DNA of 64,000 nucleotides from Nitrospirota bacterium (lineage in GTDB: Bacteria > Nitrospirota > JACRHJ01): the NCBI GenBank assembly GCA_963733375.1, contig CAVTDB010000001.1:1-64000 (forward strand), read 5' to 3'. Positions 3,791-50,889 of this stretch are shown here, one piece after another. The position numbers and the translations under genes were made by a program. The first letter of the stretch is position 1. Each line of letters begins with the position of its first letter. The notes below the pieces were generated by a model, which saw only the letters and a list, made by a program, of their open reading frames with translations, was not told the origin of the DNA and searched no databases.

Positions 3791-4426
3791 CTAAGGTATT
3801 CTCCAGTATGCGTGCAATATCCCGCTTGCCTGGAGCCTCTCGATAACATACGCCAGCGGAATAAAAAGCAAAAACATAGTTCCATCAAGGAGCGTCTTGG
3901 CCATGAGCTTCGGCTGGGCCTTTGCCTTCTCTCCCGCATGGAAACCGAACAGGTTTGGCAGAAAGGCCGGCACTTTTTCTTTATATGCGGTAAACGCGCT
4001 CCCGAAAAGCAGTTCCAGACGCTTCTCCTCCGATTTGATAACCAGCGGGTAATAAAACGAAAAAACCGCGAGGTAAAGGATTATTACCGCCAGGTTCTCC
4101 AAGACAATGGACGCGCCCAGGCCCCCCAGGAAAGAGAAAAAATAAAGTGGGTTCCTGCACATGGAATACGGCCCGTCCTGGACTAACTGGCTGTTTTTGC
4201 GGCCCCCTATGTACATGGTGGACCACGCCCGCCCCCCAAGGCCTGCAAATATCAGCGCTATTCCGCTATAATCGAATGCCCGGTCAATCGTCCCGCCCTC
4301 CGGCCAGCTGTGCCGGATAAAAAGTATCAGCGGAAGCCCGACCAGCAGGAACCCGCCCGTGATTAAACGTCTGTTTCGCTCGAAAAAATTAAACGTCTTC
4401 TTTACCGCGTCCCGCTCATATCTCAT
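3791..4426 (-). CDS. Isoprenylcysteine carboxylmethyltransferase (ICMT/PEMT)-family membrane methyltransferase
   Basis: LVQDGPYSMCRNPLY and EEKRLELLFG..Y..KVP motifs; ATG 4426 overlaps tldD stop (ATGA). Confidence 0.8.
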   Translation of the reverse strand: MRYERDAVKKTFNFFERNRRLITGGFLLVGLPLILFIRHSWPEGGTIDRAFDYSGIALIFAGLGGRAWSTMYIGGRKNSQLVQDGPYSMCRNPLYFFSFLGGLGASIVLENLAVIILYLAVFSFYYPLVIKSEEKRLELLFGSAFTAYKEKVPAFLPNLFGFHAGEKAKAQPKLMAKTLLDGTMFLLFIPLAYVIERLQASGILHAYWRIP

Positions 4427-5812
4427 CCGTGCGTACCGCCTACAATTATATCCGTTATCAAAAGCGTCGGCTGGGCGTCCGCGACCGGCGCGCCCTGCCC
4501 GTCCTTGCCGCATGTCCCGATGGCAAATCCCAGGTCGTTTCCGACCATCGTAATGCTGGAGAGCACCTGCGGCCCGTTCCCGACGAGAGTTGCGCCGCGT
4601 ACCGGCTCACCCATCTTGCCCTTCTCTATCAGGTAGCCTTCGCTGACTTCAAATACGAAATCCCCGTTCACCGTGTTGACCTGGCCGCCGCCCATCTTCT
4701 TCACCAGCAGGCCGCTATCGCACGAGCGCAGTATGTCTGCGGGTTCGCTTTCGCCCGGCACGATCATAGTGTTTGTCATGCGCGGAATGGGCCGCGCCAT
4801 GTAGGATTCGCGCCTGCCGTTTCCGGTGGAGGAGGCTCCGTCTTTCATCGCCGTAAGCCTGTCGTACAAGAAGCCTTTCAGGACCCCGTTCTCTACCAGC
4901 ACGGTCCTCTGCGCCTCCACTCCCTCGTCGTCGAACCGGAATGAGCCGCGCCTGTTCGGAAGGGTCGCGTCGTCCACTACCGTTACGAGCGGCGAGCCCA
5001 CCTGCTGGCCTACCTTTCCCGTATAAACGGATAATCCGTTCTGCGAGAGGTCCGCCTCCAGGCCGTGCCCGACCGCCTCGTGCACCATCGTCCCGCCAGC
5101 CTCGGATGACAGCACCACCGGCATCCTGCCTCCGGGCGCGGGACGCGCTGCAGAGCATCAGAACCGCCCGCTTAGCCGCCTTCTCCCCAATCGAAACGGC
5201 AGGGAAATCCTTGAACAGCTCAAAACCGATATTCCCGCCGGCGGACTCGAATCCGGTCTGGACGGTGCCGCCATCCTTCGCAATCGCATTCACTGCCGCC
5301 ACCAGATAATATCTCTCATCATGGGCGAGCGTCCCGTCGGAGCAGGCGATAGTCACCTTCTGCAAGGTATCCCGGTACTGCACGGCGACCTGCGCGACCC
5401 TTTGGTCCACCGCCCGCGCCGCCCTGTCCGCCTCCTTAACGAGCGCAAGTTTGCGCTCCACGGCGACGCCTTCCGGCGGATCGATTATCTTATGCACCAC
5501 CGGCGGCCGCTTCTCCCGGAGGTCCAGGACGATGTCTTTGCCCCCATTGCCGCCGCACGCGCGCGCTATCTCGGCCGCAAGCGCCAATAGCGCCTTCTCC
5601 GTCATGTCGTTCGTATAGGCGTAGATCGTCCTGAAGCCCGTAATGACACGCAGCCCCGCGCCGGACTCGACGCCGGAGATGACCTTTTCCACCTTCCCGT
5701 CTTCGAGCGCAATCGCCGTGGGGACTGTATGCTCGACGTACAGGTCGGCATACTCGCCTCCTCTGGAGAGGGCGGCTTTTAATATTTTTGAATAGTCCAA
5801 TTCGTTTGCCAT
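4423..5812 (-). CDS. tldD: TldD metalloprotease (one frameshift)
   Basis: GGEYADLYVE N-terminus, HEAVGHGLEAD, GNGRRESY..PIPRMTNT, GTCGKDGQ. Confidence 0.9.
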
Positions 5813-17208: not shown

Positions 17209-18862
17209 TTATTTCATTACCGCGCCGGTATTGGCCGAGGTGACGTTGCGGGAATACCTGGCCAGCCACCCGGTTTTTATTTTAGGCTCCGGCTTCTTCC
17301 ACGCCTTCCTGCGCTTCGCAAGCTCCGCCTTCGTCACTTTTAACTCTATCTTCCTGGCCGGGATGTCTATGGCTATCTCGTCCCCGTCTTTTACAAACGC
17401 TATCGGCCCGCCCTCCATCGCTTCCGGACTCACGTGCCCGATGCAGGGGCCCTGGGTCCCGCCGGAGAAGCGGCCGTCCGTAATCAGGGCTACCGAATCA
17501 GCTAACCCCATGCCGACTATGGCCGCGGTCGGAGAGAGCATCTCGCGCATGCCGGGGCCGCCTTTGGGGCCTTCGTACCGGATTATGACCACATCGCCAG
17601 ACTTTATCTTCCCGCCAAGAATTGCGGCCATCGCATCCTCTTCCGCATTGAAGCACTTCGCCCGGCCTTTGAACTTCATCATCTTTTCAGAGACGGCCGT
17701 CTGCTTTATGACGGAGCCCAGGGGCGCGAGGTTCCCGGTCAAGGACCGCTATCCCGCCTTCTTTATGATAGGCGCGCTCGACCGTCCTGATTATCTCGTC
17801 GCTTTCCGGCTTCGCGCTCCTTGCTATCTCTTTTACCTTGAATCCGGATACGGTAATCCCGTCCTTCAGGCGCGAGATAAGCCTTGACATCACAGCCGGG
17901 ATGCCGCCCGCCGCGTCTAAATCTTCCATATAATATTTGCCGGATGGCAGAAGGTCCGTGATGTGCGGCGTCTTTTTGCTTATCTCGTCTATCGCCGATA
18001 ACGTTATGTCTATACCGGCCTCATGCGCTATGGCGGGTATATGCAGACAGGTATTCGTAGACCCGCCAAGCGCCATGTCCACGGCTATGGCGTTCTCGAA
18101 CGCCGCCCTTGTCAGAATCTTGTCAGGCGTGATGTCTTTCTTTACCAGCTCGACGATCCGCTCGCCCGATTCATAGGCTATCCTGCGCTTTTTGCTGGAT
18201 ACCGCGAGCGCCGTGGCGCAGCCCGGAAGCGACATCCCTATCGCCTCGGTGACGCATGCCATCGTATTCGCGGTGTAGAGCCCCTGGCAAGCGCCGGGGC
18301 CGGGGCAGGCGCATTCCTCCAGCGCGCAGAGCTCGGCCTCGTTTATCTCGCCCTTGCGGAAGCGGCCGACCGCCTCGAACGTGCCGGATACCAGGTTCTG
18401 CCTCTCCATCCCGAGCCTGCCGGAGATCATCGGCCCGGCCGTCACCACTATCGACGGAATGTTCAGTCTCGCCGCGGCCATAAGCATTCCGGGCGTAATC
18501 TTGTCGCAGTTCGTAAGGAGCACCAGTCCGTCAAGGGCATGGGCCAGGGTTATGGATTCCACCATATCGGCGATAAGCTCGCGGGAAGGCAGGGAGTAGT
18601 GCATCCCGCCGTGTCCCATGGCTATGCCGTCGCAGATGCCGGGTATGCCGAAGATGAAGGAGTATCCGCCGCCGGAATGTACGCCTTTTTCTATGTAGCG
18701 CTCCAGGTCCCTCATGCCTATATGGCCGGGGATAAGGTCCGTAAAACTGCTCGCGATTCCGATAAGCGGCTTTTCCAGACCCTTCCTGGTTATCCCTGTG
18801 GCGAAAAGGAGAGCGCGGTTTGGAGCTCTCTCCACTCCTTTTTTTATCCTGTCGCTCCTCAT
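17209..18862 (-). CDS. ilvD: Dihydroxy-acid dehydratase (one frameshift)
   Basis: [42 protein letters not shown]. Confidence 0.96.
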
Positions 18863-20442: not shown

Positions 20443-20565
20443 TCCGGCGTCCCCGAATGATTTAGTCGGGACCCAGGGTTTAAAATTCCTGGATTCCCGC
20501 CTCGCGGGAATGACGGCCTTCCCTAACCCCTCGCCCTTCACGGGAGAGGGGCAGGGGGTGAGGGT
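20443..20565. repeat. Cluster of REP-like palindromes between convergent genes
   Basis: CTGGATTCCCGCCTCGCGGGAATGAC (ATTCCC-N-GGGAAT type) and CCCCTCGCCCTTCACGGGAGAGGGGCAGGGGGTGAGGG. Confidence 0.65.
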
Positions 20566-21239
20566 GTCTTCTCTTCCGCGTCCGACTTCCGTATATATAA
20601 CGGAGTGAGCGACATCGGGTCCGCGACATTCCCCGCGTTGATCTCCTTCAGTCCCCTGAAGGCCACCGTCGCGCCCGAAGGGTATCCGTATGCCTTCGGG
20701 GCGAACAGCGCCTGACAGCATAACTGCCCCGCCAGAAGCTCCCGGTAGACGTACGCACCCTCGCCAAGGAAAACCGTCGGCTCCTCTATCGCGTCCACCA
20801 GTTCGTCCGGAGTAATCACGGACGGCGGCAGGACGACCCTTCTCACCGTATCCGTTATCTTGTAAATTGCGCAGTACACCATTTTCTTCCGGGCGTCCAG
20901 CACCGGCGCGACCTGATGGCGGCAATACGGCAGGTTATCCGCCAGCGCCTCCAGGCTGTTCACCGCCGCGACAGGTTTCCCCGAAGCGTACGCCATCGCC
21001 TTAACCGCCGCAATCCCGATGCGAAGGCCCGTGAACGAACCGGGGCCAACGCTCACTGCGAAGCCGTCGATGTCATCAAGCGTCAGGCGCGCGGATTTCA
21101 GGAGCGTGTCGATGTGCTCCATCAGCCGCTCCGAATAGGTCAGCGAGACGTTCGTCCGCATCTCCGCGACGAGCAGCTCATCGTCCACTATCCCCACCGC
21201 GCCCATCATGGTGGAGGTGTCTATGCCTAAAATTTTCAT
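20538..21239 (-). CDS. tsaB: tRNA threonylcarbamoyladenosine biosynthesis protein TsaB
   Basis: ILGIDTST, GPGSFTGLRIG, LDARK, PLYIR. Confidence 0.93.
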   Translation of the reverse strand: MKILGIDTSTMMGAVGIVDDELLVAEMRTNVSLTYSERLMEHIDTLLKSARLTLDDIDGFAVSVGPGSFTGLRIGIAAVKAMAYASGKPVAAVNSLEALADNLPYCRHQVAPVLDARKKMVYCAIYKITDTVRRVVLPPSVITPDELVDAIEEPTVFLGEGAYVYRELLAGQLCCQALFAPKAYGYPSGATVAFRGLKEINAGNVADPMSLTPLYIRKSDAEEKTPSPPAPLP

Positions 21240-21325: not shown

Positions 21326-22565
21326 TTATACCCGCCCGATAACCAGCGCCGCGTTCATCCCGCCGAAGCCGAAGGCGTTGGAGAGGACGTAATCCACTTT
21401 TGCCTTGCGTCCGGTATTCGGGATGTAGTCCAGGTCGCAGTCCGGGTCCGGGTCGGTTAAGTTCAGGGTCGGCGGGAGGTATTCGTTCTTTATGGCGAGT
21501 GCGCAGATGGCGGCCTCTATCGCGCCGGTTGCGCCCAGTGGATGTGCGTGGAAGGGCTTTGTCCCGCTGATGGGGACTTTATATGCGTGTTCGCCAAGGG
21601 CTCTCTTTATGGCGGTCGTTTCGTTTTTGTCGTTCATCTGCGTAGAGCTTCCGTGGGCGTTGACATAGCCTATCTGCTCCGGTTTAATACCCGCCTGACC
21701 GAGCGCAATTGTCACCGCACGCGCCGCGCATTCGCCGTCGTCACGCGATGAGGTCATGTGGTAGGCGTCGTTCGTGAGGCCGTAGCCAAGGACCTCGGCG
21801 TATATCCTCGCGCCGCGCTCCCTCGCATGACCCATCTCCTCCAGAATCAGCGCCGCGCTCCCCTCGCCCATTATAAACCCGTCTCGTCCGCCGTCGAACG
21901 GACGGCACGCGCCTTCCGGGTCGTCGTTCCTTGTTGTCATTGCCTTGATTAACGTGAACGAGCCGAATGTAAGCGGAGACAGAGGCGCCTCCGCCCCGCC
22001 CGCGATAAGCACGTCCGCACGGCCCGCGCGGATCATCTCGAACGCCTCGCCCACGGCCATCGTCCCCGATGAGCAGGAGTTTGAATTAGTGATGTTCGGG
22101 CCGGTCAACCCAAGCTCGATAGCTATATGGCAGGAGGACGACGCGCCAAAGACAAGTGTGGCAAGGGCAGGATTTACGCCCTTCAGGCCCTTCTCCCGGT
22201 ACACGTCGTGCTGGCTCTCCGCGAATGCGAGGCCGCCCAGGGCAGAGCCTATTACGATACCTGTTTCGGGATTGCGGGAGACGTCGAGATTAGCGTCTTC
22301 GATTGCCATCCGGGCCGATGCGACGGCGAACGCGGCAAAGCGGTCGATTCTTTTCAAGACCTTTCCGCTTACGAAATCGGAAGGCGCTGAAAGATTTTAT
22401 CTCGCCCGCGACTTTCGTCCTGAAGAGGGAAGCGTCGAAAGAGGTTATCCCGCTTATCCCGGAGCGGCCCTGAAGGATACCGTCCCAAAGCCCGGAAACG
22501 CCGAACCCGATTGGCGTCAACGCGCCGATGCCGGTAATTGCGACCCTTATCCTGCCGTCAGCCAA
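21326..22565 (-). CDS. FabF-like / type II PKS-like beta-ketoacyl synthase (one frameshift)
   Basis: RVAITGIGALTPIG, catalytic NSCSSG (Cys), NAHGSST and FHAHPLGA (His, His), SNAFGFGG. Confidence 0.9.
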
Positions 22566-23031
22566 CTTGTTGTCTCCTGCCGTTTTCGGCGATTTCCTTT
22601 ATTTTTTTCAGTGTCTTTGAAGCGATGTTATGGACGAAGAAACGGCCGACGATATATTTTGCTACAAACTTCCCCAGGACAGGCCCCCAATCGGGGTCGA
22701 ACTCATGGATGATCCTGACCTGCGTTACCTTTCCCCGCTCCGTCGTCTTCTCTTTGATAATCCATTCCACGTACATCCCGATGGTGGGGCCGCCGATATG
22801 CCGGAAGATTATCTTACCCATCTCCGGCAGAGGTTTCTGGATGGATATCCAGCTTACGGGTATGCCGTCCCGGCTCGCCGCCATCTCCACCACCCGGTGG
22901 TCTCCCTCTTCTTTAAGGAGCGTCACCCGCCGGTAATGCGGGAGTCTCGCCGGCCATTTCAGAACGTCCCAGGCAAGGTTATAAACATCCTCCGCCGGCG
23001 CGTTTATGCTGATGGAATTTTCAGTGAACAC
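22558..23031 (-). CDS. SRPBCC/START-fold polyketide cyclase/aromatase-like protein
   Basis: TENSISINAPAEDVY..WPARLPHY, MAASRDGIPVSW, FRHIGGPTIGMYVEW, FVHNIASKTL. Confidence 0.8.
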   Translation of the reverse strand: MFTENSISINAPAEDVYNLAWDVLKWPARLPHYRRVTLLKEEGDHRVVEMAASRDGIPVSWISIQKPLPEMGKIIFRHIGGPTIGMYVEWIIKEKTTERGKVTQVRIIHEFDPDWGPVLGKFVAKYIVGRFFVHNIASKTLKKIKEIAENGRRQQVG

Positions 23032-23072
23032 GGCATCCTCCCCTCATCTCCACGTTCTTTCCGCCTCGCCCA

Positions 23073-24303
23073 TCACCCACGCTCTATTCCCCAAGTCCGC
23101 CCGGAATCCATATCGTCAAAAATTTTGCCGTACTCCTCCAGAACTCCGGTCCTGAACTCTTTTTCTACCCTTACGGCCTTATGCATGAAACGCTCGCAGT
23201 GACGGCAGCTGAACAGTCGGTCGTACGGCAGTCTTTGTCCCTGAACCCATCTAAAAAACCGTCCAGTTTTTTATTGTCGATATAAACCGGCTCGCCTTCC
23301 GGAGTTCCAAGGAGTCCGCGCTTTAACGCGAGTTCCCTTATTTTCATAAGCCTCGTGAGCTTGACATCTCCGGGGCGGAAAAAATATTTCCAGAAATGCG
23401 CGGCCTTTTTAATGCCGCCCGTCGGCTTGTCTTTATAGCCATAGGGCTGGATGAGGTCCAGCAAGTTTCCCTCGAAGCTCCCCCCGGCGTATGCCCGTAT
23501 CCTTTTCAACATAGCCGCCGCCGGAGCGCCCCGTTCTAGTATCTTGAAAGTTATTATAACCTAAAGTCCGGTATTGTCCCAGGTCTTCCGGGCGGATGAA
23601 TTCCGAACGCAGGTAGTTCACCGGGTCACGGAGCTTCAGATAAGAGCACTTGAGGGCGCACCAGTCTATCATAAAACCCGCCGCTCCGGTGCCCTTTCTG
23701 GGAGGCGTGGGACAGGTTTACCATGTGCTGGCCGGATAGCGGGCAGAACATCAGGCAGTTGGAATTCGCGATAAGCTGAAGCTCCAGAGTAACCGCTTTT
23801 CGGATTGCCGCCAATAACTTAAAGTTCCTGTTCACGGAGATGGACTCCAGAGTAATGCAGTCCGCGCCCATCTCCTCCCAGAACTTCGCCTTGGCAATGG
23901 AATCCACCCGCGCATAAACCCCCACTCTGACCGCCAGGGAGGGGTTATGCCGCTTTATCACGGGCAGGACCGATGGCAGGGATATCGTGACGCTCCGGGC
24001 GCCTATGGACTCCGCGAAATCCAGCGCACCCCGCAGGGCCTTCTGGCCTTTGCGCGTGTACTCCATATTGTCCATGCAGGCGGCGTTTAAGAGGTAGTTG
24101 AAGCCGATGCCTTTTTTCTTCGCGGTTTCAATATACTTGCGAAGGGCGCGGGCCGAGAGGGGAGAGAGCATGAACGAGGCCCTGCCGCCGCCGACAGGGT
24201 CCGAGGGGAGCTTGCCGAAAAGCTCCGAGACCGGCAGCCCGGAAAGTCCCTCTAAAAATCCTTCATCGAAGCAGGCCGCGACGGAAAATTTTAGGTCGGG
24301 CAT
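23073..24303 (-). CDS. Peptidase U32-family Fe-S protein (frameshifts)
   Basis: GGGR, FNYLLNAAC, VNRNFKLL, IANSNCLMFCP..H..WCALKC, FIRPEDL, C-terminal CxxxxC..CxxC. Confidence 0.8.
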
Positions 24304-25094
24304 CAGATGAACCCCACAAGGGACATCCTCCAGAAATGCCGCCTTCTGACCCTGAATTCCTTTAATCCCGAAGCCTGGGCGAGCCTTTTCATCTCGCCGG
24401 GAGTAAAGGACCTGAGGACGGATAACGGCCCGTCATAGCGGGTGTACTTATTGCTGGTGAATAGCCTGGAGATTATCCAGATAAGCGCCCAGGGGATAAG
24501 GTTTCGCCGCAGGTCCCCCGCGATTACGGCAAAACGTGAAACCCGCGCCATCTCCCTCAGGAAATGTACCGCGTCTTCCTCGCTCAGATGGTGCAGCACT
24601 AAAGAGCAGTGGACTATATCGAAGCTATTGTCGGGAAAAGGGAGTTTGAGCCCGTTCGCCAGAGCGTATGAAATTTCATGAAACTCACGGTTCCAGGCCT
24701 TCCCTTGCCCGAGGACGGCTAAATTCAAATCTGCCGCCACGGCAAGTACCTTGAAGCCCCTCTTCCCGGCATGGCTTGCCATCGCGGCGGTTACGTCCGC
24801 CGAGCCAGCGGCGACATCCAGAATTTTCAGATCCCGTCCGGCCTCATTTTTGCCTTCCAATCCCCACTTGGTACTATTTTTTGCCCTTTAACTCAGCCAT
24901 TCAGCCCCACTTTTCCTTTTTACTTCCATGTGGTCGAGGACGAGGCCTAAATCGCGCAGGGCGGAATTAATCCCTCCCAGCCGCAGGTTCACCTGCCGGA
25001 TGTCCATCAGACTGCCTGAAAGCTGACGCTCATCCTGCGCCTCGAACGGCAGGTCGAGTAGTTCCGGGTCTGTACGCCTGCGGGGCGCGAACAT
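24303..25094 (-). CDS. Class I SAM-dependent methyltransferase (one frameshift)
   Basis: ELLD..SLMDIRQVNLRLGG N-terminus, ILDVAAGSAD, FDIVHCSLVLHH, DLRR, YDGPLSVLRSF. Confidence 0.85.
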
Positions 25095-26026
25095 CAGAAG
25101 CCGGTAGTTTCCTGGCCCTTCTTGACCGCCTCGACAGACTTGTCGAAGGCCTCGCGCTCCTCTTCCGTGAGCGCAACCTGGAGTATTTCCTCCACACCGT
25201 CCATGCCCAGGATGACCGGCACGCCGGTGAACGCACCGGAGACCTTATACTCTCCTTCCAGGAGTACGGAACAGGGCAGTATCCTCTTCTGGTCAAGGAG
25301 TATAGCCTGCGCCATGGCAGCGGCGGCGGCGGCCGGGGCATAATAGGCGCTGCCGGTCTTGAGCAACGAGACTATCTCCGCTCCGCCGTTCCTGGTCCTC
25401 TCCACTACGGAGTCGATCGACTCCTTGTCCATCAGTTCGGTAATAGGTATTCCGGCGACAGTGGTATAACGGGGAAGCGGGAGCATCTGGTCGCCATGCC
25501 CGCCCAGGACGAACGCCTGGATGCTGTCCGCGGAGATGCCAAGCTCGATGGAGATGAATGTCCGGAACCTTGCGCCGTCGAGCACGCCCCCCATCCCGAT
25601 GACGCGCTCCTTGGAGAAGCCGCTGACCTTCCAGGCCACGTATGCCATAACGTCCATGGGGTTGGTCACGACTATTATCTTGGCGTCGGGTGAGAGAGGC
25701 GCGGCGGCCTTCGTAACTTCGGAGACAATTTTTACGTTCGCGGCAAGCAGGTCGTCTCTGCTCATTCCGGGCTTCCTGGCCATCCCGGCCGTGATGATTA
25801 TAAGGTCCGAGCCGGCGGTTTCTTCATAGGTGTTCGTCCCGACGATATCTCCGCTTATCCCCACAATCGGCGCGGACTCCAGTAGGTCTAGGCCTTTTCC
25901 CTGGGGCAATCCATCCACCATATCCACCAGCGCCACGTCGCCCAGGCGCATTTCCAGAATTTTCTGGGCCACCGTGGCTCCGACATTACCGGCGCCGATT
26001 ACCGTTATTTTGTTTCTTTTCTGCAA
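25094..26026 (-). CDS. mdh: Malate dehydrogenase (LDH-like)
   Basis: [34 protein letters not shown]. Confidence 0.95.
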
Positions 26027-26044: not shown

Positions 26045-27314
26045 TTACGGTTTCGTGATTTTTACGCTTCCAATCTTCCTTTCGTCCATCTCCAGCACTT
26101 CAAATTTCAGTTCTTTGTATTTCAGGGTCTCGCCCGGGTGGGGCATCCTGCCGAAAAGCCCGAAGACGAAGCCTCCGATGGTATTAAAGTCCTTCGACTG
26201 GATGTTTATCCCCGTCTCCTGGCTTACCTCGTCAAGGTCGGCGGCTCCGGATACTACGAAATTCTTCTCGTCGACTATCTGGACCTCGCTCTCCTCCCTG
26301 TCGAACTCGTCATGGATGGAGCCGACTATTTCCTCCAGCAGGTCTTCGAGCGTTATAAGCCCGGCCGTGCCGCCGTACTCGTCTATCACAATCACCATCT
26401 GTATCTTCTGGTCCTGCATCTCCGTCAGGAGTTCCCGGACCCTCTTTGTCTCCGGGATGAAATAAGCCGGCCGGACCATCCTTTTTATTGTATCATTTTC
26501 ATCCAGTTCGCCGCGGGATAATGCGATAACCAGATCTTTTACATAAAGGACGCCCTGCACCGCGTCCACGGATTCCTCGATTACCGGATAACGTGAATGC
26601 CCGTGCTCCGCCACGAGGGAAAGCACTTCCGAGACCTTCGCGTCGTTAGGGATAGAGACTATCTCCGTCCTCGGGCGCATGGCCTCAAGGGCCAGGGTAT
26701 CGCCGAACTCGAATACCTTGTGGAGCATTGCCTTCTCCTCCACGTCCAGCGCACCCTCCTCCTGCCCTATGGATATTATAGCCTTTATCTCGTCCTCGGT
26801 CACGAAAGGCGATTTCTCCACCTTTCCGCCCAACAGCCTGATAATAGCATTGGTAACGCTGGTAAAAACCCAGACGATGGGGTGCATCAGGGATATGATA
26901 AACTCCATCGGCCTCGCAACCATAAGCGCCACCTTCGAGGCGTTGGAGGCGGCAAATGTCTTTGGAGTTATCTCGCCGAACATGACGATGAAGACCGTCA
27001 TTACGACCGAGGCGATCACCGTCACGGGCCGGTATGTCGGGAAAAGAGATATAGCGAGGGCGGTGCCCAGGGAGGACGCCAGGATTATAAAGAAGTTTTC
27101 CGTAAGGAGTATGGTACCGAAAAGCCTGCCGTGCTCCTCCCTGAGTCCTCTGGACCGATTTGGCGTTCGGGTTCCCTTTTTCCACCATGCTTCTTATCCG
27201 AAGACGGTTTACCGAGATTAACGCCGCCTCGGAACTGGAGAAAAAGGCAACGAACAAAACGCATATTATGATGATTACAATACTCAGAACGGGGGGGATT
27301 GCCAGCGATTCCAT
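26045..27314 (-). CDS. CNNM/hemolysin-type transporter (DUF21-CBS-CorC) (frameshifts)
   Basis: AFFSSSEAAL, FGEITPK, HSRYPV, VIDEYGGTAGLITLEDLLEEIVG. Confidence 0.9.
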
Positions 27315-27594: not shown

Positions 27595-28176
27595 ATGAAG
27601 GAATTACTCGGAGGAATGCTGAACGGGATGAAAGACGTGTTGGCCGCAAAAGCCGGCGAGGGTTCATTAGAGAAGATATTAATACATTCCGGCATAACCA
27701 ATTTTTCAGTCTTCGACTCGTCTGAAATCCCGGCAAAGACCCTGATGGAAGTACTGGAAAACCTTTGCAGAACATTAAATATTCCACTTGGCGAAACTGC
27801 TGAGGTTTACGGCGAGCACTGGTTCAGGCATTATATCCCCAAGATTACGCCCTATCTCGGAGCGGATATAAATAACTCCAGATCTTTTCTATTAAAATTA
27901 AACGAAATACACTCGCCGTCCCCTGCCGGCAGCGAGACCCCTCCGTTTTTTCATTATAGCTGGAAGGATGAGAACACGCTGATGCTGAGCTGCGTCGGCT
28001 TCGACGAATGGGAAAGCCTGCCTTACTATCTCTTTAAAGGCATGGTCAGCGGCGTGGCGAAATTCTATAATGAAGACCTGCGGATATTTACCGGCCCTTC
28101 GAATACCTTCATCATAATTTTCCCGGAATGCGAAATCAAAAGAAGGCAAGCCCGACAAGCAGGAAGCTTAAATTGA
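27595..28176 (+). CDS. H-NOX (heme NO/O2-binding)-like protein, copy 1, degenerate
   Basis: YGEHW, SFLLKLNEIH, PPFF.Y.W.DENTL.L, KGMVSGVAKFYNE resemble the HNOB fold; no YxSxR motif. Confidence 0.65.
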   Translation: MKELLGGMLNGMKDVLAAKAGEGSLEKILIHSGITNFSVFDSSEIPAKTLMEVLENLCRTLNIPLGETAEVYGEHWFRHYIPKITPYLGADINNSRSFLLKLNEIHSPSPAGSETPPFFHYSWKDENTLMLSCVGFDEWESLPYYLFKGMVSGVAKFYNEDLRIFTGPSNTFIIIFPECEIKRRQARQAGSLN

Positions 28177-28347: not shown

Positions 28348-28929
28348 ATGAAATTACTTATGTGTGAGATGCTAAACGGAATGAAAGAGATAGCAGTTGA
28401 AAAGGCCGGAAAAGAATCTTTGGAAAAAATCTTACAGGAGACGGGGGCGAATTATTCAATTTTTCAATGCCCTGAAGAAGCCTCTACCAAGACTATTCTT
28501 GTGCTCCTGGAAAGAATATGCAATAAAATCCACATGAACTTATATGATACCGCCGAAGTATTCGGAGAGTATTGGATCCAATGCCGCCTGAGCGGTATGC
28601 TTTCCTTGAAAGGTATCCGCATCAATAATTCAAAATCTTTGCTGACAAGGCTGAACGAACTGTATTTTGCGATGGCTACGTCTAATAAAGACCATCCGGT
28701 ATTTGGATATGAATGGAAGGGCAAGGACACACTGATGCTTAGTTGCGTCGGCACTGATGAGCGGCAAAACCTATCTTATTATTTCTTTAAGGGCATGGTT
28801 AACGGCGTGGCGAAATTTTACAAGGAGAACCTGCAGATATTTATAGGCCCATTAAATAACATCGTCATAATTTTCCCGAACGCCAGGATCAAAAGAAGGA
28901 AAGCCCGCCAAGCAGGAAGATCGAATTGA
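28348..28929 (+). CDS. H-NOX-like protein, copy 2, degenerate (His replaced by Tyr)
   Basis: Same length (193 aa) and clearly paralogous to copy 1; FGEYW, LTRLNELY, KGMVNGVAKFYKE. Confidence 0.6.
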   Translation: MKLLMCEMLNGMKEIAVEKAGKESLEKILQETGANYSIFQCPEEASTKTILVLLERICNKIHMNLYDTAEVFGEYWIQCRLSGMLSLKGIRINNSKSLLTRLNELYFAMATSNKDHPVFGYEWKGKDTLMLSCVGTDERQNLSYYFFKGMVNGVAKFYKENLQIFIGPLNNIVIIFPNARIKRRKARQAGRSN

Positions 28930-29498
28930 TGCTCGAGTTGGGGGTTTTTATAGTGGCGTTGGAGATGTGCCGGTAGCGGCACTGGATGTTTATGGCCCGT
29001 TTATCGTCCAAGAAATACTGCACTCCGAGCCCGGTCTGGATTATGAAATTGAAATCCGTCCCCTGCACCCGGTGCCCTATCGGCTCGTAAATCGCCCCAA
29101 AGCCAAAGGTCGAATAAGGCGACCACCTGCTTTGAAGAGCGGTGAAGTTATACTTGAAACCGGCAAACGAAAGCCCCGCCTCGACCTTTCCGTTCGGGTG
29201 CGTTATCACCCCCACCACCGGCTCCGCCTGGTACTGGACCAGTCCCCGGAAAAAAGAAGCTCCCCATTTCTTTTTTTGTCAGGAGAATGGATAGCGACGG
29301 CATGAATACCGCGTGCTCTATGCACGGCTGGACGGCATGGTGGTCCATAGCCCAGCCGTACCCGGCCAGGAAGCCGATTTCATAGGGGCTTCTGAGGATG
29401 ATGTCTTTAGAATCCAGGTCCGCGGCGAAGGCGTGAGTCGCCGAAATAACGAAAAGAAGTGCGATTAAAAAAATTTTTCGCATAAAGTGTTTGAACAC
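28889..29498 (-). CDS. PagL-like lipid A 3-O-deacylase / acyloxyacyl hydrolase (frameshift)
   Basis: Signal peptide, FNFIIQTGLG, YRHISNA catalytic motif, terminal Phe. Confidence 0.8.
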
Positions 29499-35256: not shown

Positions 35257-37523
35257 TTAGAACTTGACGTTCCCCATGCCCTTGAGGTTCAGCATTACCA
35301 TATATTGTTTTCTGCTTGGACCGTTGAAGTAGTCGAAGCTCACTCCCCAGCACTGCGAGCTGTAAGTCGCCGTCCCGTCCGTCTCGCGGAAATTGCCGGT
35401 GTGCCAGTCGTACCACAGTTTTGCTGTAATATCCCAATGACTGCCTATTTTGACGCCGCCTTCAACAGTCAGAAAATCTACGGTGCTCTCTTCCTGCGCT
35501 TTATTAATATTAAAATTGTTGAAAAAGTCCGTGCTGGGCGTGAAGAAATCAAAACGCGAAGGGGACATGAAAGTCTGTTCCGCGTCAAGCGAGTATCTCT
35601 GACCGATGCCGACATGCCAGAGCTTGTCCTTGGAGTCGTACCGGAGGTCGGTGTCCACGGAGCGCAGGCTCCCCTGGTAGAAGTCGTAGCGGAAGTCGTT
35701 ATTCAACGTAAGGCGCAGGCTGGAGCTGTAGCTGATTTCACTGTAGAGGCTGGAAAAGGTGCGCCTCTTCGTGCCTATGAACGTATCGCCGAAGAAGTCG
35801 TAGAACTGGCTGAGTTTGACGGTCAGGTAATCCACCCTCGGCTCTTTAGCTGCCATCTCTGTACTTCAAGACGAACCGGTTAGCGAGGGAGTAGGTTATC
35901 ATGCTCCGTCTGGGGGGCAGCACGTTTATAATACGTGAGCCTGCGGGCAGGACCTCTTCGCTGTCGAGCGTGTCCACGTCGTCGAAATCGGGTAAATTTT
36001 TACCTCCCCGACTTGTGACATAATTGTAGGCGAAGGTTGGGACCAGGGTATGCCGCACGCCTTCCAGGGGGCCGCCGCTGAAAAGGAACAGCCTGTTCAA
36101 ATCCGTCTGGAGCTTTATCCCCGCTCCAAACATCCCGCGCTCAGTGTCGTTTTTATCGATTAAAACGTCATTTTTGCCCGTTGCGGGATCAAACTTTGTG
36201 GCTGGATTATTATCGTCCAGATTGTACGCCGTTTCGCGGTACCCGACCTTCGGCTCAAAATTTATTCCTGCCAGATTGAAGTCGTACGAGAGGCTGGGGA
36301 ACGCGTCGAACCGCGCGCCGGAGACGCCCTTTAATTTATAAAAATTCGTGGCGGAGGAGTCTAAACTGAAATAGAACGGCTGGCCCAGCAACTGTTTTTT
36401 GACCACGTTGAAACCGGCCTCCGGGAGGCGCTGCACTACAGCTTCATTGTTCTGGGTAGGGTCCAGCGTCCTCGGTATATTGGCCGAACAGATACGCCCT
36501 GCCCCAGTCCCAGCGGTCGGTGAGCCAGACATTTGAGTCCAGGGCCCTCTGTGTCCTCTCGAGCGTGGCATCGGTCAGGTCCCGGAAGAAATTCTTGTCG
36601 CTCACGCGTATATCGGCCCGGCCGGAAATGTCCGGAGCAAATACCTCCTGATACTTTAAGGACAGGTTGTACCTGTCGGCATCGATCAAACGGTCACTCA
36701 TATAGTAGCCATACAGGCTCAGCTTGGTGTCCTTGTTTTGCGCATAGCGGATCTCGTCGGCGACGCCAAGGCCCCGAAGTGCCCTGTAATCGAGGGTCAG
36801 GGTGCTGTCGAAATTATCGACCGGCGCCCAATAATAGCTTTCGATAAGCCTGACGCCGTCCTTCGTGTTATATCCGCCTGACGGGATCATAAAACCGCTC
36901 GTCCGGGGCTTCAGCATGGGGAGCCAGACATACGGCATATACAGAACGGGAATGCCTTTAATGTAAAAAACGGCCCCCTTGGCGTAAACGTCCCTGTCCA
37001 TCCGGACATCCAGGGATTTCGCCCTCATGTACCAGAAAGGATTTTCGGCGTCGCAGGTGGTAAATCCCCCGCCGGTGATTATATATTCCTGGTCTCCGAC
37101 CTTCTCCAGTGGGTTTCCTTTGATGCGGTAGTTGCCATTCTTGACGAATATATTGCCCTGCTCGATGACGCCCAGCTTCGTATTGAAATTTACTTTTATG
37201 ACTTCCGCGAAAACGACGTTGTCAGGCGAAACGAGTCTCGCTTTGCCCATGGCCTCGGCGTCTCCGGTTTCCTCATTAAGAGTCGCCTTCAGGGAGGTCA
37301 GCGTATAGTCTTTCTGGGAAATTTTAACGTTGCCGTCGGCAAAGTAGGTATTGGTCTTCCGGTCGTAGCGGAGGCTGTCCGCCTGGATCGTCACGGGCTC
37401 TTTTGAGTCGGCTATGGATTTCATCCTGCCGCCAATTTTATCCTCATCCGCGGCGGCGGGCGGAACAAAATAAATAGACGAAAGGACTACCATCGCCATG
37501 AGGACGCCGAAGAGACTTTTCAT
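35257..37523 (-). CDS. lptD: LPS-assembly protein LptD (frameshifts)
   Basis: OstA-like N-terminus, FTTCD, RTSGFMIP, YYWA, beta-barrel, Y.SQCW near the C-terminus. Confidence 0.85.
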
Positions 37524-49335: not shown

Positions 49336-49797
49336 CTAATACGGCTTTACAGACTTCTCCTTGAGGAAGTCTTCCAGGTCTTTTTTAATATTATTTGAAA
49401 AACCTACCATGTCCATAGGTATCACGCCCGTCTTCAGGGCCCCTTTCGGCGTGGAGTAGTCGATCAGGAAAAACTCCCGCGCGCGTCCCTTCTTGTCCCG
49501 CACGGCTTTAAAACCGGCCTTATGCGCCTTGTCCCATTCGCAATGTTCCCTTTTCCAGGGGTTTACGCCGTAAACCGTAAAATTTTTTTCATTCCAATCG
49601 AAAACCGGGAACTTCCAGAACCGGTAGATTGCAACTATTACGATGACATTCAGGACGTAGAGAAGCGCGAGAGGTGCGGCGGTATACGGCCCGTGGAACC
49701 TCTTCAGCAGGTAGCCCAGGATGATATCCGCCCCGACGCAGTAAAAGATGACCTCGTTCATCCTCTTCTGGGAGAGGAACATCCGGCCGTGGCGCAT
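49336..49797 (-). CDS. Hypothetical two-TM membrane protein inserted between pheS and pheT
   Basis: 153 aa ORF, TAATG overlap with pheS stop; two hydrophobic segments then a soluble beta-rich domain. Confidence 0.65.
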   Translation of the reverse strand: MRHGRMFLSQKRMNEVIFYCVGADIILGYLLKRFHGPYTAAPLALLYVLNVIVIVAIYRFWKFPVFDWNEKNFTVYGVNPWKREHCEWDKAHKAGFKAVRDKKGRAREFFLIDYSTPKGALKTGVIPMDMVGFSNNIKKDLEDFLKEKSVKPY

Positions 49798-50889
49798 TAA
49801 AATTGCCTTAAGAAACGCATGTCGTTTTCATAGAAGAGACGGATATCGTCGATGCCGTACTTCAGCATCGCTATCCGCTCCATTCCAAGGCCGAAGGCAA
49901 AGCCCGTGAATTCCTCCGGGTCGTAACCCACGGCGCGGAAAACCTCCGGGTCCACCATCCCCGAACCGAGTATCTCCAGCCACCCGGTGCTCTTGCAGAC
50001 GCGGCATCCCTTCCCGCCGCAAATCACGCAGCGGATGTCAACTTCGGCTGAAGGCTCCGTAAACGGGAAGAAGCTCGGCCTGAAGCGAGTGGCCGTACCG
50101 GAGCCGAACATCCGGGAGATGAAGGTCTCCAGCACGCCCTTCAGGTGCGAAAAATTTATATGCCTGTCCACCATCAGCCCTTCGACCTGGTGGAACATCG
50201 GCGTATGGGATACGTCCGCGTCGCAGCGGTAGACTTTTCCGGGCGCGATAACCTGCACCGGCGGGCGGCTCGACTTCATCACCCGTACCTGCACCGGGGA
50301 GGTATGGGTGCGCAGAACTACCTCGTCCGACACGTAGAACGTGTCCTGCATATCGCGGGCGGGGTGGTCCTTCGGCATGTTCAGGGTCTCGAAGTTGTAA
50401 TAATCCAGCTCAACTTCGGGGCCTTCCGCGACCGAGAACCCCATGTCCCGGAAAATTTCCACAACCTCCATAGTGACTGAAGTTATGGGATGCGGCCTGC
50501 CTACGCCCGGCCTCCTGCCGGGCAGAGTAATGTCTATTCTCTGCGCGGTAAGTTTTTCCGAACGCTCCTTCGCCGCCAGTTCCTCGCCCTTCGTCTTGAG
50601 CGCGGCCTCATAGCGGCCAGCCAGTCTCGTTTAAAAGACGCCCCGCCTCTTTGCGGTCTTCCGGGGCTTCCTGAGGGATTTTTTTGCGGAGGATGGAGAC
50701 TATGCCCTTCTTGCCGAAAAGCTCAAGCTCGACGGCCTTCAGGTCGTCCGTGGAGGACGCATATTTGTTTATGACCTCTTCCGCGCCAAGCCCGTCCGAG
50801 ATGCGAGGTATCAGCTCCGTAAGCTTCCCCGCGCCCTCCAGAGTGCTTTTGAGGCCCCTTGCTTTTTCCAGAAACTGCTCCAGCGACAA
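49797..50889 (-). CDS. pheS: Phenylalanine--tRNA ligase alpha subunit (frameshifts)
   Basis: [39 protein letters not shown]. Confidence 0.95.

What the first reader, a model, noticed from the sequence alone, without database searches (positions are those of the whole stretch)
21326..25094. Candidate new pathway: methyltransferase - U32 Fe-S protein - SRPBCC cyclase - standalone ketosynthase
Seen: four tightly packed genes (TGATG overlap at 24303, 8-nt overlap at 22558-22565). The KS keeps the Cys-His-His triad. There is no ACP, chain-length factor or other fab gene alongside. The U32 protein has CxxxC..H..CxxxC plus a C-terminal Cys cluster. Established: U32 proteins UbiU/UbiV, TrhP and RlhA perform O2-independent Fe-S-dependent hydroxylations; START-fold proteins cyclise/aromatise polyketides; Streptomyces SrsABC-type clusters (type III PKS + methyltransferase + flavin hydroxylase) make alkylresorcinols/alkylquinones. 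Inference: a minimal KS+cyclase builds an alkyl-aromatic ring from fatty acyl-ACP, which is methylated and then hydroxylated anaerobically by U32 in place of a flavin monooxygenase, giving a phenolic lipid or alternative quinone.
Basis: partly seen in the sequence, partly recalled or inferred. Interest (0 to 1): 0.8.

Follow-up and report, generated by a model that had tools for sequence, protein, structure and literature searches.

The report
Anaerobic phenolic-lipid tailoring gene cluster
In an uncultured Nitrospirota bacterium, an iron-sulfur U32 enzyme and a methyltransferase that in other bacteria sit beside polyketide synthases are packed with a cyclase-like protein and a fatty-acid-type ketosynthase, hinting at a way to make quinone-like lipids without oxygen.

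Summary
The overlaps, KS triad, U32 cysteines and lack of ACP or fab genes hold. But in this window MT has an in-frame stop, U32 three frameshifts and KS one. Essential genes across the window are split too, and dN/dS is 0.06-0.17, so these are probably sequencing errors. A 92.5% identical Nitrospirota locus (L027) has all four intact.

The U32 belongs to a divergent clade with two invariant four-Cys motifs. In 80 related loci, a type III PKS lies within 9 kb in 44, a methyltransferase in 49 and a B12-radical-SAM gene in 29. The common order MT-U32-T3PKS mirrors published MT-FAD oxidoreductase-T3PKS operons. Only 1 of those 44 loci also has a FAD_binding_3 protein. This supports U32 standing in for the flavin hydroxylase. 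My literature searches found no description of it.

The window lineage (5 of 80 loci) has no T3PKS. Its place is taken by an SRPBCC whose profile matches type II PKS aromatase/cyclases, though the catalytic Arg69 is not aligned, and by a KS nearly indistinguishable from FabF. Whether that pair builds the ring is unresolved (about 0.35-0.4). Verdict: partly supported; a new variant of a known kind.

The parts
24303..25094 (-). SAM-dependent methyltransferase (class I, UbiE/COQ5-like, nearest NCBIfam PRK06202). It is interrupted in the window by an in-frame TAA at 24888-24890. Its start ATG overlaps the mdh stop (TGATG).
   Evidence: Pfam PF01209 56.4 bits. NF004851 117.9 bits (cut-off 243). The intact L027 ortholog is 263 aa and 92% identical. 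Junction sequences are. dN/dS against L027 is 0.167.
23073..24303 (-). Divergent U32-family Fe-S protein, about 407 aa when intact, with two four-Cys motifs. In the window it is broken by single-base indels near 23676 (+1), 23546 (+1) and 23212 (-1).
   Evidence: PF01136 26.6 bits (cut-off 22.4). Cys conservation is 80/80 and 79/80. PDB 5d88 3.1e-9. hhalign to E. coli UbiU gave E 1.3e-3.
22558..23031 (-). SRPBCC/START-fold protein of the polyketide aromatase/cyclase sequence type, 157 aa. It is the only one of the four genes intact in the window.
   Evidence: PF03364 45.8 bits. PDB profile search: BexL 1.9e-22, WhiE 5e-11, TcmN 1.4e-7, ZhuI 4e-7. 21 invariant residues including H32, Y33, R34, R54, H78, H109 and E149. 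dN/dS 0.117.
21326..22565 (-). FabF-type beta-ketoacyl-ACP synthase II, about 412 aa when intact. It is split in the window by a +1 insertion near 22382. Its TTG start overlaps the SRPBCC stop by 8 nt.
   Evidence: TIGR03150 scores 442.1 and 56.5 bits for the two pieces. The L027 ortholog scores 514.6 against a cut-off of 493.75. B. subtilis FabF 4ls5 gives 413 bits. Catalytic residues are, the tree. dN/dS 0.064.
25094..26026 (-). Malate dehydrogenase, immediately upstream and translationally overlapped with MT. It is context, not part of the proposed pathway.
   Evidence: TIGR01763 431.3 bits. TGATG junction. It is upstream of MT in L020, L023, L027 and L029 but not in L035.
20538..21239 (-). 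tsaB (tRNA t6A complex subunit), downstream neighbour. It is context only.
   Evidence: TIGR03725 160.3 bits. It follows KS only in L027 among the related loci.

Best explanation
The four genes form a real, selected unit in one Nitrospirota lineage. Their breaks in this window are most likely sequencing errors.

MT and U32 are the tailoring pair of a widespread set of phenolic-lipid (type III PKS) clusters, found mostly in anaerobic lineages, for which my searches found no description. In these clusters the U32 protein occupies the slot that an FAD-dependent hydroxylase holds in srsABC, hidABC and pkqABC-type operons. It carries two four-Cys motifs, so probably two Fe-S clusters on one chain.

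Inferred mechanism: U32 hydroxylates the resorcinol-type ring without O2, by analogy with UbiU/UbiV, where prephenate is the O donor. MT then methylates the ring or its hydroxyl. The product would be an alkyl-methyl or alkyl-methoxy quinol/quinone or related phenolic lipid.

In the window's lineage the T3PKS slot downstream of U32 is filled by an aromatase/cyclase-type SRPBCC translationally coupled to a FabF-type KS. My preferred reading is that this pair supplies the ring. KS would extend an acyl-ACP with malonyl-ACP borrowed from housekeeping fatty-acid synthesis, and the SRPBCC would capture and cyclise the unreduced beta-keto chain.

Shown: gene order, conservation, family assignments and co-occurrence. 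Inferred: every chemical step.

Sub-probabilities: MT-U32 as an O2-independent tailoring pair for a polyketide-derived phenolic lipid, about 0.7. SRPBCC-KS as the ring-maker, about 0.35-0.4. The confidence given (0.4) is for the whole statement including the ring-maker step.
For: Family context:
- A T3PKS lies within 9 kb of this U32 clade in 44 of 80 loci, any MT in 49 of 80, and a B12-rSAM in 29 of 80.
- Recurrent orders are MT-U32-T3PKS, U32-MT-T3PKS and T3PKS-MMPL-U32-UbiE-type MT.
- The T3PKS keeps Cys-His-Asn in 32 of 33 members and matches CHS, STS and PKS18 in PDB.
- In the T3PKS-MMPL-U32-MT group the MT sampled (L058) passes the ubiquinone/menaquinone MT model TIGR01934, 168.7 against 158.35.
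- Window-type U32 sits inside a 36-row clade (SH-aLRT 99) in which 27 of 36 loci have a T3PKS.
- Only 1 of the 44 T3PKS loci has a FAD_binding_3 protein among the 96 unassigned ORFs scanned.

Literature:
- An MT-FAD oxidoreductase-T3PKS tricistron occurs at 58 of 96 planctomycete T3PKS genes, and in hidABC (PMC10896814 passages).
- The pkq operon makes polyketide quinones used under hypoxia (PMC9927152 passages).

The unit in the window lineage:
- MT-U32-SRPBCC-KS is kept in L035 with different flanks and a B12-rSAM upstream.
- No locus has both a T3PKS and the SRPBCC.
- The SRPBCC profile hits only aromatase/cyclases strongly.
- TcmN W28, Y35, W63, M91 and W95 align to family-invariant W26, Y33, W61, M86 and W90.
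- The KS clade at 69% identity or more forms one group (SH-aLRT 100, stem 0.33).
- KS and SRPBCC hits share contig lengths in 8 cases, spanning 69-82% KS identity.
- dN/dS is 0.06-0.17 for all four genes.
- No fabH, fabD, fabG or acpP lies in the 64 kb, so the usual fab operon is elsewhere.
Against: - KS is almost indistinguishable from housekeeping FabF. It passes the fabF equivalog model, keeps all catalytic and gating residues checked, and has only S209T and P272S as clade-specific changes. It is nested among FabFs of other phyla rather than with the clearly cluster-dedicated KS of the second Nitrospirota group.
- There is no chain-length factor, no ACP and no thioesterase.
- The aromatase/cyclase catalytic Arg69 is not conserved at the aligned position, and Arg82 falls in a gap (roles from PMC13525633 passages).
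- L001 shows that MT-U32 can stand alone with about 10 kb flanks, so the ring-maker can be encoded elsewhere.
- mdh is as tightly coupled to MT as the other genes are to each other.
- The single SRPBCC-KS fusion (P0072) has no counterpart. Of the top 150 hits in the representative library, only the 14 with extra length were scanned against Pfam, and none carried an SRPBCC.
- The absence of a T3PKS in SRPBCC loci reflects one or two evolutionary events, not five independent ones.
- No U32 protein has yet been shown to hydroxylate in vitro (PMC10990095 and PMC11574389 passages).
Confidence: 0.4

Rival explanations
1. KS is simply FabF, either the housekeeping copy or an extra copy that feeds acyl chains. 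The SRPBCC is a non-catalytic binder that holds the hydrophobic substrate for U32 and MT, a role like UbiT or Coq10. The aromatic ring comes from a T3PKS encoded elsewhere in the genome.
For: - FabF-like in every test.
- Arg69 is not aligned in the SRPBCC.
- The START review notes that cyclase-annotated START proteins lacking catalytic residues may be scaffolds or binders (PMC13525633 passages).
- L001 has MT-U32 without any ring-maker nearby.
- Other cluster types carry different small accessory proteins (DUF2147, F8).
- A lipid-binding protein gene in a planctomycete-related T3PKS operon is reported (PMC10896814 passage).
Against: - The SRPBCC profile is far closer to aromatase/cyclases than to the Coq10-like 1T17 (1.9e-22 against 0.072).
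- It has seven invariant polar residues.
- It is coupled to KS, not to U32, by an 8-nt overlap.
- No T3PKS lies within about 10 kb in four relatives, nor within the 64-kb window.
- The fab operon genes are absent from the window, so a second acpP-linked fabF is plausible.
Confidence: 0.35
2. MT-U32(-SRPBCC) modify a different aromatic lipid, for example a hydroxylated or methylated isoprenoid quinone. KS is an unrelated neighbour.
For: - MT resembles UbiE/MenG at its SAM-binding core (E about 1e-13).
- UbiU/UbiV act on a prenylphenol (PMC6747719).
- 26 of 80 loci show this U32 clade with none of the tracked partners.
Against: - The window-type U32 is nested in the T3PKS-linked clade.
- MT is below every UbiE/MenG cut-off.
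- There are no prenyltransferase or men/mqn genes among the ORFs of 90 aa or more scanned across the window.
- SRPBCC-KS stay attached in L035.
Confidence: 0.1
3. The cluster is a decaying pseudogene remnant in the window's organism.
For: The 3.8-kb cluster carries four uncompensated indels and one stop. About 6 lie in the other roughly 16 kb of coding sequence aligned to L027, a modest excess by my own rough count.
Against: - Essential genes (ilvD, leuC, lptD, pheS) are split the same way across the window.
- 8 of the 10 uncompensated coding indels are +1 insertions.
- dN/dS between the window and L027 equals that among intact relatives: MT 0.167, U32 0.131, SRPBCC 0.117, KS 0.064.
Confidence: 0.07
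4. U32 plus MT hydroxylate and then methylate an RNA base, as TrhP does with a methyltransferase on tRNA or RlhA does on rRNA.
For: Characterised U32 proteins outside ubiquinone synthesis act on RNA (PMC11574389 passages). tsaB is the next gene downstream in this window. The B. subtilis yrrM-yrrN-yrrO arrangement is recalled, not checked.
Against: - No NCBIfam RNA-modification model matches.
- The clade's recurrent partners are T3PKS, B12-rSAM lipid-type enzymes, MMPL and ABC exporters.
- tsaB follows KS only in L027 among the relatives.
Confidence: 0.03

Closest known systems
srsABC (Streptomyces), hidABC (cyanobacteria, planctomycetes) and pkqABC (mycobacteria, Streptomyces): T3PKS + methyltransferase + FAD hydroxylase operons that make alkylresorcinols and polyketide quinones
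   Same: Related loci share a three-part logic of ring-maker, methyltransferase and hydroxylase. They often share the gene order too, MT-(hydroxylase slot)-T3PKS.
   Different: The hydroxylase slot holds a U32 Fe-S protein, not a flavoprotein (1 of 44 loci has both). The MT is not the ICMT-type SrsB. B12-radical-SAM genes are frequent extras (29 of 80). The window lineage has no T3PKS at all.
UbiU-UbiV-UbiT, the O2-independent ubiquinone hydroxylation system
   Same: Both have a U32 fold and a conserved four-Cys Fe-S motif. The first Cys pair aligns with UbiU C169/C176. The proposed substrate is likewise an aromatic lipid, and methyltransferases partner in the pathway.
   Different: The relationship is very remote (hhalign E 1.3e-3, no NCBIfam match). 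The spacing is CX3CX27CX3C instead of CX6CX15CX3/4C. This is a single chain with an extra C-terminal four-Cys motif rather than a heterodimer. There is no SCP2-type UbiT.
RlhA (single U32 domain plus a Cys-rich extra domain)
   Same: Both are one U32 polypeptide carrying a second conserved Cys cluster, which may remove the need for a partner subunit (PMC11574389 passage).
   Different: RlhA acts on 23S rRNA. No sequence match to it was found or tested here.
Type II PKS minimal system with mono-domain aromatase/cyclase (TcmN, WhiE-ORFVI, ZhuI, BexL N-domain)
   Same: An ARO/CYC-type START protein sits next to a Cys-His-His ketosynthase.
   Different: There is no chain-length factor and no ACP. 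The KS is closer to FabF (413 bits) than to the actinorhodin KS (310 bits). Arg69 is not aligned.
FabF (KAS II) of type II fatty-acid synthesis
   Same: It passes TIGR03150, keeps the catalytic and gating residues, and is 57-61% identical to FabFs of other phyla.
   Different: It is not next to acpP or the fab genes. It is always preceded by the SRPBCC in its clade, as far as could be traced. It forms a separate clade with the longest stem (0.33) among the FabF-like subclades drawn.
ACP-KS-B12-radical-SAM lipid modules flagged in ladderane-type comparative genomics (NCBIfam TIGR04072)
   Same: The second Nitrospirota group has ACP-KS-B12rSAM between U32 and T3PKS. The rSAM scores 291-343 bits on TIGR04072.
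   Different: The scores are below the 360-bit cut-off. The window itself has neither ACP nor rSAM. I saw the Rattray 2009 paper only in a search listing.

Membership tests
Peptidase U32 / U32 Fe-S oxidases | Match to Pfam PF01136 above its gathering score | tested here: met
   The window N-terminal piece scores 26.6 bits, L027 25.0 and L054 39.6, against a cut-off of 22.4. Only the first third or less of the profile is matched (profile positions 3-66 or 3-88 of 233).
Peptidase U32 / U32 Fe-S oxidases | Four conserved Cys in the recurrent CX6CX15CX3/4C motif that binds a 4Fe-4S cluster | tested here: inconclusive
   Four Cys are invariant in 80 of 80 loci, but they are spaced CX3CX27CX3C. The first pair aligns to UbiU C169/C176 at hhalign E 1.3e-3. 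The motif definition comes from PMC6747719.
Named U32 subfamilies (UbiU, UbiV, TrhP, RlhA) | Match to a curated subfamily model or clear sequence similarity | tested here: not met
   No NCBIfam family at E up to 1e-5. hhalign probability is 18% to UbiU and 1.6% to UbiV. TrhP and RlhA were not compared directly.
U32 Fe-S oxidases | O2-independent, prephenate-dependent hydroxylation | not testable with these tools
   This needs genetics, isotope labelling or enzymology.
srsABC/hidABC/pkqABC-type phenolic-lipid operon | Type III PKS in the operon | tested here: not met
   None in the 64-kb window or in L020, L023, L027, L029 or L035. Present in 44 of 80 related loci.
srsABC/hidABC/pkqABC-type phenolic-lipid operon | FAD-dependent hydroxylase/oxidoreductase in the operon | tested here: not met
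   No such gene lies between mdh and tsaB. Among the 44 T3PKS-bearing relatives only L037 has a FAD_binding_3 protein.
srsABC-type operon | SrsB-type (ICMT-domain, membrane) methyltransferase | tested here: not met
   The window MT matches class I Rossmann MT families. SrsB is described as ICMT-type in PMC13730376.
UbiE/MenG/COQ5 and PRK06202 methyltransferases | Score above the curated cut-off | tested here: not met
   TIGR01934 scores 47-50 bits against 158.35. NF004851 scores 118-122 bits against 243.
Type II PKS aromatase/cyclase (TcmN/WhiE type) | START fold with sequence similarity to solved ARO/CYCs | tested here: met
   Profile against PDB: BexL 1.9e-22, WhiE 5e-11, TcmN 1.4e-7, ZhuI 4e-7.
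Type II PKS aromatase/cyclase (TcmN/WhiE type) | Catalytic Tyr35, Arg69 and Arg82 (TcmN numbering) | tested here: not met
   Tyr35 aligns to invariant Y33. Arg69 aligns to P67, or to Q65 in the BexL register. Arg82 lies in an insertion. The alignment is at low identity, so a shifted Arg (invariant R34 or R54) cannot be excluded. No structure model could be made.
Type II PKS minimal system | KS-alpha plus chain-length factor plus dedicated ACP | tested here: not met
   There is a single KS, and no second KS-like ORF or ACP in the window.
FabF (KAS II, TIGR03150) | Equivalog model score and Cys-His-His, Lys335 and Phe400 | tested here: met
   The L027 ortholog scores 514.6 against 493.75.
FabF as the housekeeping enzyme | Sole FabF of the genome, or located in the acpP-fab operon | not testable with these tools
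   No fab genes lie in the window.

The most novel reading that the evidence does not exclude
A FabF-type ketosynthase homodimer and a single-domain aromatase/cyclase form a two-protein resorcinol synthase. It has no chain-length factor and borrows ACP from fatty-acid synthesis. In one Nitrospirota lineage it displaced a type III PKS. It feeds a two-cluster U32 Fe-S hydroxylase and a methyltransferase, so that a polyketide quinone-like lipid is made entirely without O2.
Probability: 0.3. Interest if true: 0.85.

Novelty: new variant of a known kind. Interest (0 to 1): 0.65.

Why it matters
Known U32 Fe-S enzymes act only in anaerobic ubiquinone synthesis and RNA base hydroxylation. A U32 clade embedded in type III PKS clusters would add polyketide and phenolic lipids as a third substrate class. 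It would also explain how strict anaerobes could make alkylquinone-type lipids, which in actinobacteria serve as alternative electron carriers under hypoxia but there need an O2-dependent flavoprotein.

The clade occurs in cultured Geobacteraceae (Geomonas species, Citrifermentans bremense R1), so the idea can be tested directly by knockout and lipidomics. The window's own variant, with SRPBCC and FabF-type KS in the T3PKS slot, would be an unusually minimal way to build an aromatic ring if it is the ring-maker.

Tried and rejected
No fold search was possible, so whether the invariant residues line the cavity stays open.
- Complex prediction for KS with SRPBCC was unavailable and nothing was folded.
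- The protein atlas held neither the window SRPBCC nor its close homologue P0161.
- I searched the 50% representative library with the SRPBCC-KS fusion P0072 to look for further fusions. Of the top 150 hits I scanned the 14 with extra length against Pfam. They carried PilZ, REC, PocR, GGDEF or NUDIX domains, or none, and no SRPBCC. P0072 may be a read-through artefact.
- The Geobacteraceae accessory protein F8 is unrelated to the SRPBCC (hhalign E 0.29) and has no PDB relative.
- The Coq10/RatA-like reading of the SRPBCC was marked down (1T17 E 0.072).
- The RNA-modification and pseudogene readings were considered and marked down (see rivals).
- Rfam and tRNA scans found nothing near the cluster.
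- The promoter and terminator scan was not above shuffled expectation for terminators and is uninformative.
- Literature: searches for 'type III polyketide synthase'+U32 (4 papers, none with either term in title or abstract), U32+T3PKS (3, likewise), UbiU/UbiV/U32/polyketide, Geobacter+T3PKS, and U32/hydroxylase/anaerobic/phenolic lipid/alkylresorcinol/polyketide quinone returned no paper describing a U32 gene in a T3PKS cluster. In the last of these, none of the 12 papers listed (of 69 found) held U32 together with any of the three lipid terms. I saw listings only, and supplements were closed.

Full report
WHAT IS IN THE WINDOW

Between mdh (25094-26026) and tsaB (20538-21239) the minus strand carries four genes.
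- A class I methyltransferase at 24303-25094.
- A U32-family protein at 23073-24303.
- A 157-aa SRPBCC protein at 22558-23031.
- A FabF-type ketosynthase at 21326-22565.

The MT stop and U32 start share TGATG at 24303. The SRPBCC stop and the KS TTG start overlap by 8 nt, with AGGAG upstream. The mdh stop and MT start share the same TGATG arrangement at 25094, so tight packing here also ties in a housekeeping gene.

THE GENES ARE BROKEN IN THIS COPY, PROBABLY BY SEQUENCING ERROR

- MT has an in-frame TAA at 24888-24890.
- U32 is spread over four frames by single-base indels near 23676, 23546 and 23212.
- KS is split near 22382.

A Pfam scan of ORFs across the whole window shows ilvD, leuC, lptD, a folC-like gene, pheS and a CNNM gene split in the same way. 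Against the 92.5% identical locus L027 there are about 10 uncompensated coding indels in 22 kb, and 8 of them are +1 insertions.

dN/dS between the window and L027 is 0.167 for MT, 0.131 for U32, 0.117 for SRPBCC and 0.064 for KS. Among intact relatives the values are 0.10-0.16, 0.10-0.13, 0.09-0.12 and 0.07-0.09. I therefore treat the lesions as assembly errors. About 0.07 remains for real decay, because the cluster carries somewhat more lesions than its flanks.

RELATIVES AND THEIR NEIGHBOURHOODS

The U32 N-terminal piece found 40 proteins among 1049 candidates. Full-length members are about 380-410 aa. Of these, 373 were confirmed by tblastn and the best 80 were kept as L001-L080. L027, an Illumina-assembled Nitrospirota MAG, has mdh-MT-U32-SRPBCC-KS-tsaB at 92-99% protein identity, with all genes intact.

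I clustered neighbouring ORFs, built HMMs from the clusters and searched six-frame translations. Within 9 kb of U32 the counts were:
- a type III PKS in 44 of 80 loci (28 of the 41 loci with at least 5 kb on both sides)
- a PRK06202-like MT in 44 of 80
- a UbiE-type MT in 7 of 80
- any MT in 49 of 80
- a B12-binding radical SAM in 29 of 80
- KS in 11, ACP in 7, the SRPBCC in 5 and MMPL in 3 of 80

Identities come from Pfam, NCBIfam and PDB searches. The T3PKS keeps Cys-His-Asn in 32 of 33 members.

The recurrent architectures are:
- B12rSAM-(F8)-MT-U32-T3PKS-B12rSAM in Geomonas, Citrifermentans, Geobacter and relatives
- MT-U32-ACP-KS-B12rSAM-T3PKS(-DUF2147) in a second Nitrospirota group
- U32-MT-T3PKS in Kiritimatiellae, Lentisphaerae and Desulfobacterales
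- T3PKS-MMPL-U32-UbiE-type MT in a deltaproteobacterial group
- MT-U32-SRPBCC-KS in L020, L023, L027 and L029, with a B12rSAM added upstream in L035
- U32 with none of these partners in 26 loci, several of them on short contigs

In a quick maximum-likelihood tree of U32, the window type lies inside a 36-row clade (SH-aLRT 99). Of those 36 loci, 27 have a T3PKS. The nine without are the five window-type loci, L001 (full flanks) and three short contigs.

Among 96 otherwise unassigned ORFs of 280-600 aa in the 44 T3PKS loci, a FAD_binding_3 protein occurs once. It is in L037, sitting between the T3PKS and U32.

THE PROTEINS

U32
- It matches PF01136 just above threshold and matches no NCBIfam model.
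- Its only PDB relative by sequence is 5d88.
- hhalign to E. coli UbiU gives E 1.3e-3, with the first Cys pair on UbiU C169/C176. UbiV gives nothing useful.
- C185, C189, C217 and C221 (numbering of the trimmed L027 row; 183, 187, 215 and 219 in the L027 ORF) and H195 are present in 80 of 80 loci. A C-terminal CX4CX2CX2C is present in 79 of 80.
- Published work gives CX6CX15CX3/4C as the usual U32 motif. [quoted passage not shown]
- The present clade looks like a single-chain, two-cluster version. That is inference.

MT
- It is UbiE-like only in its SAM-binding core and falls below all curated cut-offs.
- SrsB is an ICMT-type enzyme (PMC13730376 passage), so this MT is an analogue, not a homologue.

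SRPBCC
- It has 58 relatives among 71 candidates and 21 invariant residues.
- Its profile hits solved aromatase/cyclases strongly and the Coq10-like 1T17 only weakly.
- TcmN W28, Y35, W63, M91 and W95 align to invariant residues. Arg69 aligns to Pro67 or Gln65. The roles of Tyr35, Arg69 and Arg82 come from PMC13525633 passages; the other TcmN pocket residues are recalled.

KS
- The L027 ortholog scores 514.6 on the fabF equivalog model, against a cut-off of 493.75. The clearly cluster-dedicated KS of the second Nitrospirota group scores 503.1, so the model does not separate the two roles.
- The best solved relative is B. subtilis FabF at 413 bits. The actinorhodin KS scores 310.
- The 42 top database entries plus one partial run from 96% down to 69% identity. 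All five with source names are Nitrospirota. Identity then drops to 61% and below, in other phyla (only the 8000 word-richest candidates were scored).
- In a 128-row tree this tier forms a clade of 44 rows (SH-aLRT 100, stem 0.33) nested among generic FabFs. The second-group KS sits apart on a 0.86 branch.
- Only S209T and P272S separate the clade from positions at least 90% conserved in 77 generic FabFs.
- KS and SRPBCC hits share longest-contig lengths in eight cases, across 69-82% KS identity. This is indirect evidence of adjacency.
- One 576-aa SRPBCC-KS fusion exists (P0072). No other turned up among the top 150 representative-library hits, of which the 14 with extra length were scanned against Pfam.
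- No AcpP, FabH, FabD or FabG is encoded anywhere in the window.

READING

MT-U32 is a tailoring pair of T3PKS clusters, with U32 in the place of the flavin hydroxylase of MT-oxidoreductase-T3PKS operons (PMC10896814 and PMC9927152 passages). The hosts are largely anaerobic lineages (record titles; lifestyle is from general knowledge). L037, with both hydroxylase types, resembles the dual aerobic and anaerobic ubiquinone systems.

- For it: the slot replacement, the cyclase-type profile, SRPBCC-KS coupling, and persistence of the four-gene unit in L035 with new flanks.
- Against it: a nearly canonical FabF, no CLF or ACP, Arg69 not aligned, and L001 showing that MT-U32 can sit away from its ring-maker.
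- The T3PKS/SRPBCC exclusivity rests on one or two evolutionary events, so it carries no statistical weight.

WHAT STAYED UNCHECKED

- The rest of the genomes, for a second fabF or a distant T3PKS.
- All metagenome and viral collections, which were closed.
- Paper supplements, which were closed.
- The census from the T3PKS side.

Noticed in passing
window, whole length (e.g. ilvD 17209-18862, lptD 35257-37523, pheS 49336-50471, CNNM 26045-27314, pagL 28889-29498): Single-base indels split many essential genes. Against L027, 8 of 10 uncompensated coding indels are +1 insertions. The assembly appears to carry systematic insertion errors.
   Followed up: partly
L037:7640-11290 (Binataceae MAG): The order is T3PKS, then a FAD_binding_3 protein, then U32, then an ABC transporter. 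This is the only one of the 44 T3PKS loci with both a flavin-type and a U32-type candidate hydroxylase, possibly a pathway for both oxic and anoxic conditions.
   Followed up: partly
proteins P0225, P0304, P0328, P0255, P0226, P0233, P0227, P0240 (representative library): FabF-like ketosynthases are fused to signalling or other domains: PilZ-KS, receiver-KS, PocR-KS, PocR-GGDEF-KS and KS-NUDIX. This suggests c-di-GMP or two-component control wired directly to a condensing enzyme.
   Followed up: no
L014:8396-9271, L044:8425-9276 and 8 other Geobacteraceae loci: A conserved protein of about 290 aa with a signal-peptide-like N-terminus (F8) lies between the B12-radical-SAM gene and MT. It has no Pfam, NCBIfam or PDB relative.
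   Followed up: partly
L002-L007, L032 (second Nitrospirota group): An ACP-KS-B12-radical-SAM module is inserted between U32 and T3PKS. Its rSAM is nearest to NCBIfam TIGR04072 ('lipid biosynthesis B12-binding/radical SAM'). Its KS sits on a long branch with changes at FabF positions 108, 202, 271 and 399.
   Followed up: partly
window 27595-28176 and 28348-28929: Two tandem H-NOX (HNOB) genes lie in a stretch of lower G+C (0.47 against about 0.56).
   Followed up: no
window 3791-4513: A PEMT-family (PF04191) membrane methyltransferase; I recall this family as belonging with the ICMT type that SrsB represents. It lies 20 kb from the cluster, and no link was established.
   Followed up: no
window 24303-24860 and relatives: The MT family carries a conserved hydrophobic stretch (LIPWALIWIISRLF in the window) after the Rossmann core. 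This would fit membrane association or a lipid substrate.
   Followed up: no
L003:8089-8970, L066:13215-15625, L071:6967-11220, L048/L054/L058 MMPL: LolA-like, MacB/FtsX-HlyD and MMPL genes lie next to several U32-T3PKS clusters. This would fit export or envelope placement of a lipid product.
   Followed up: no
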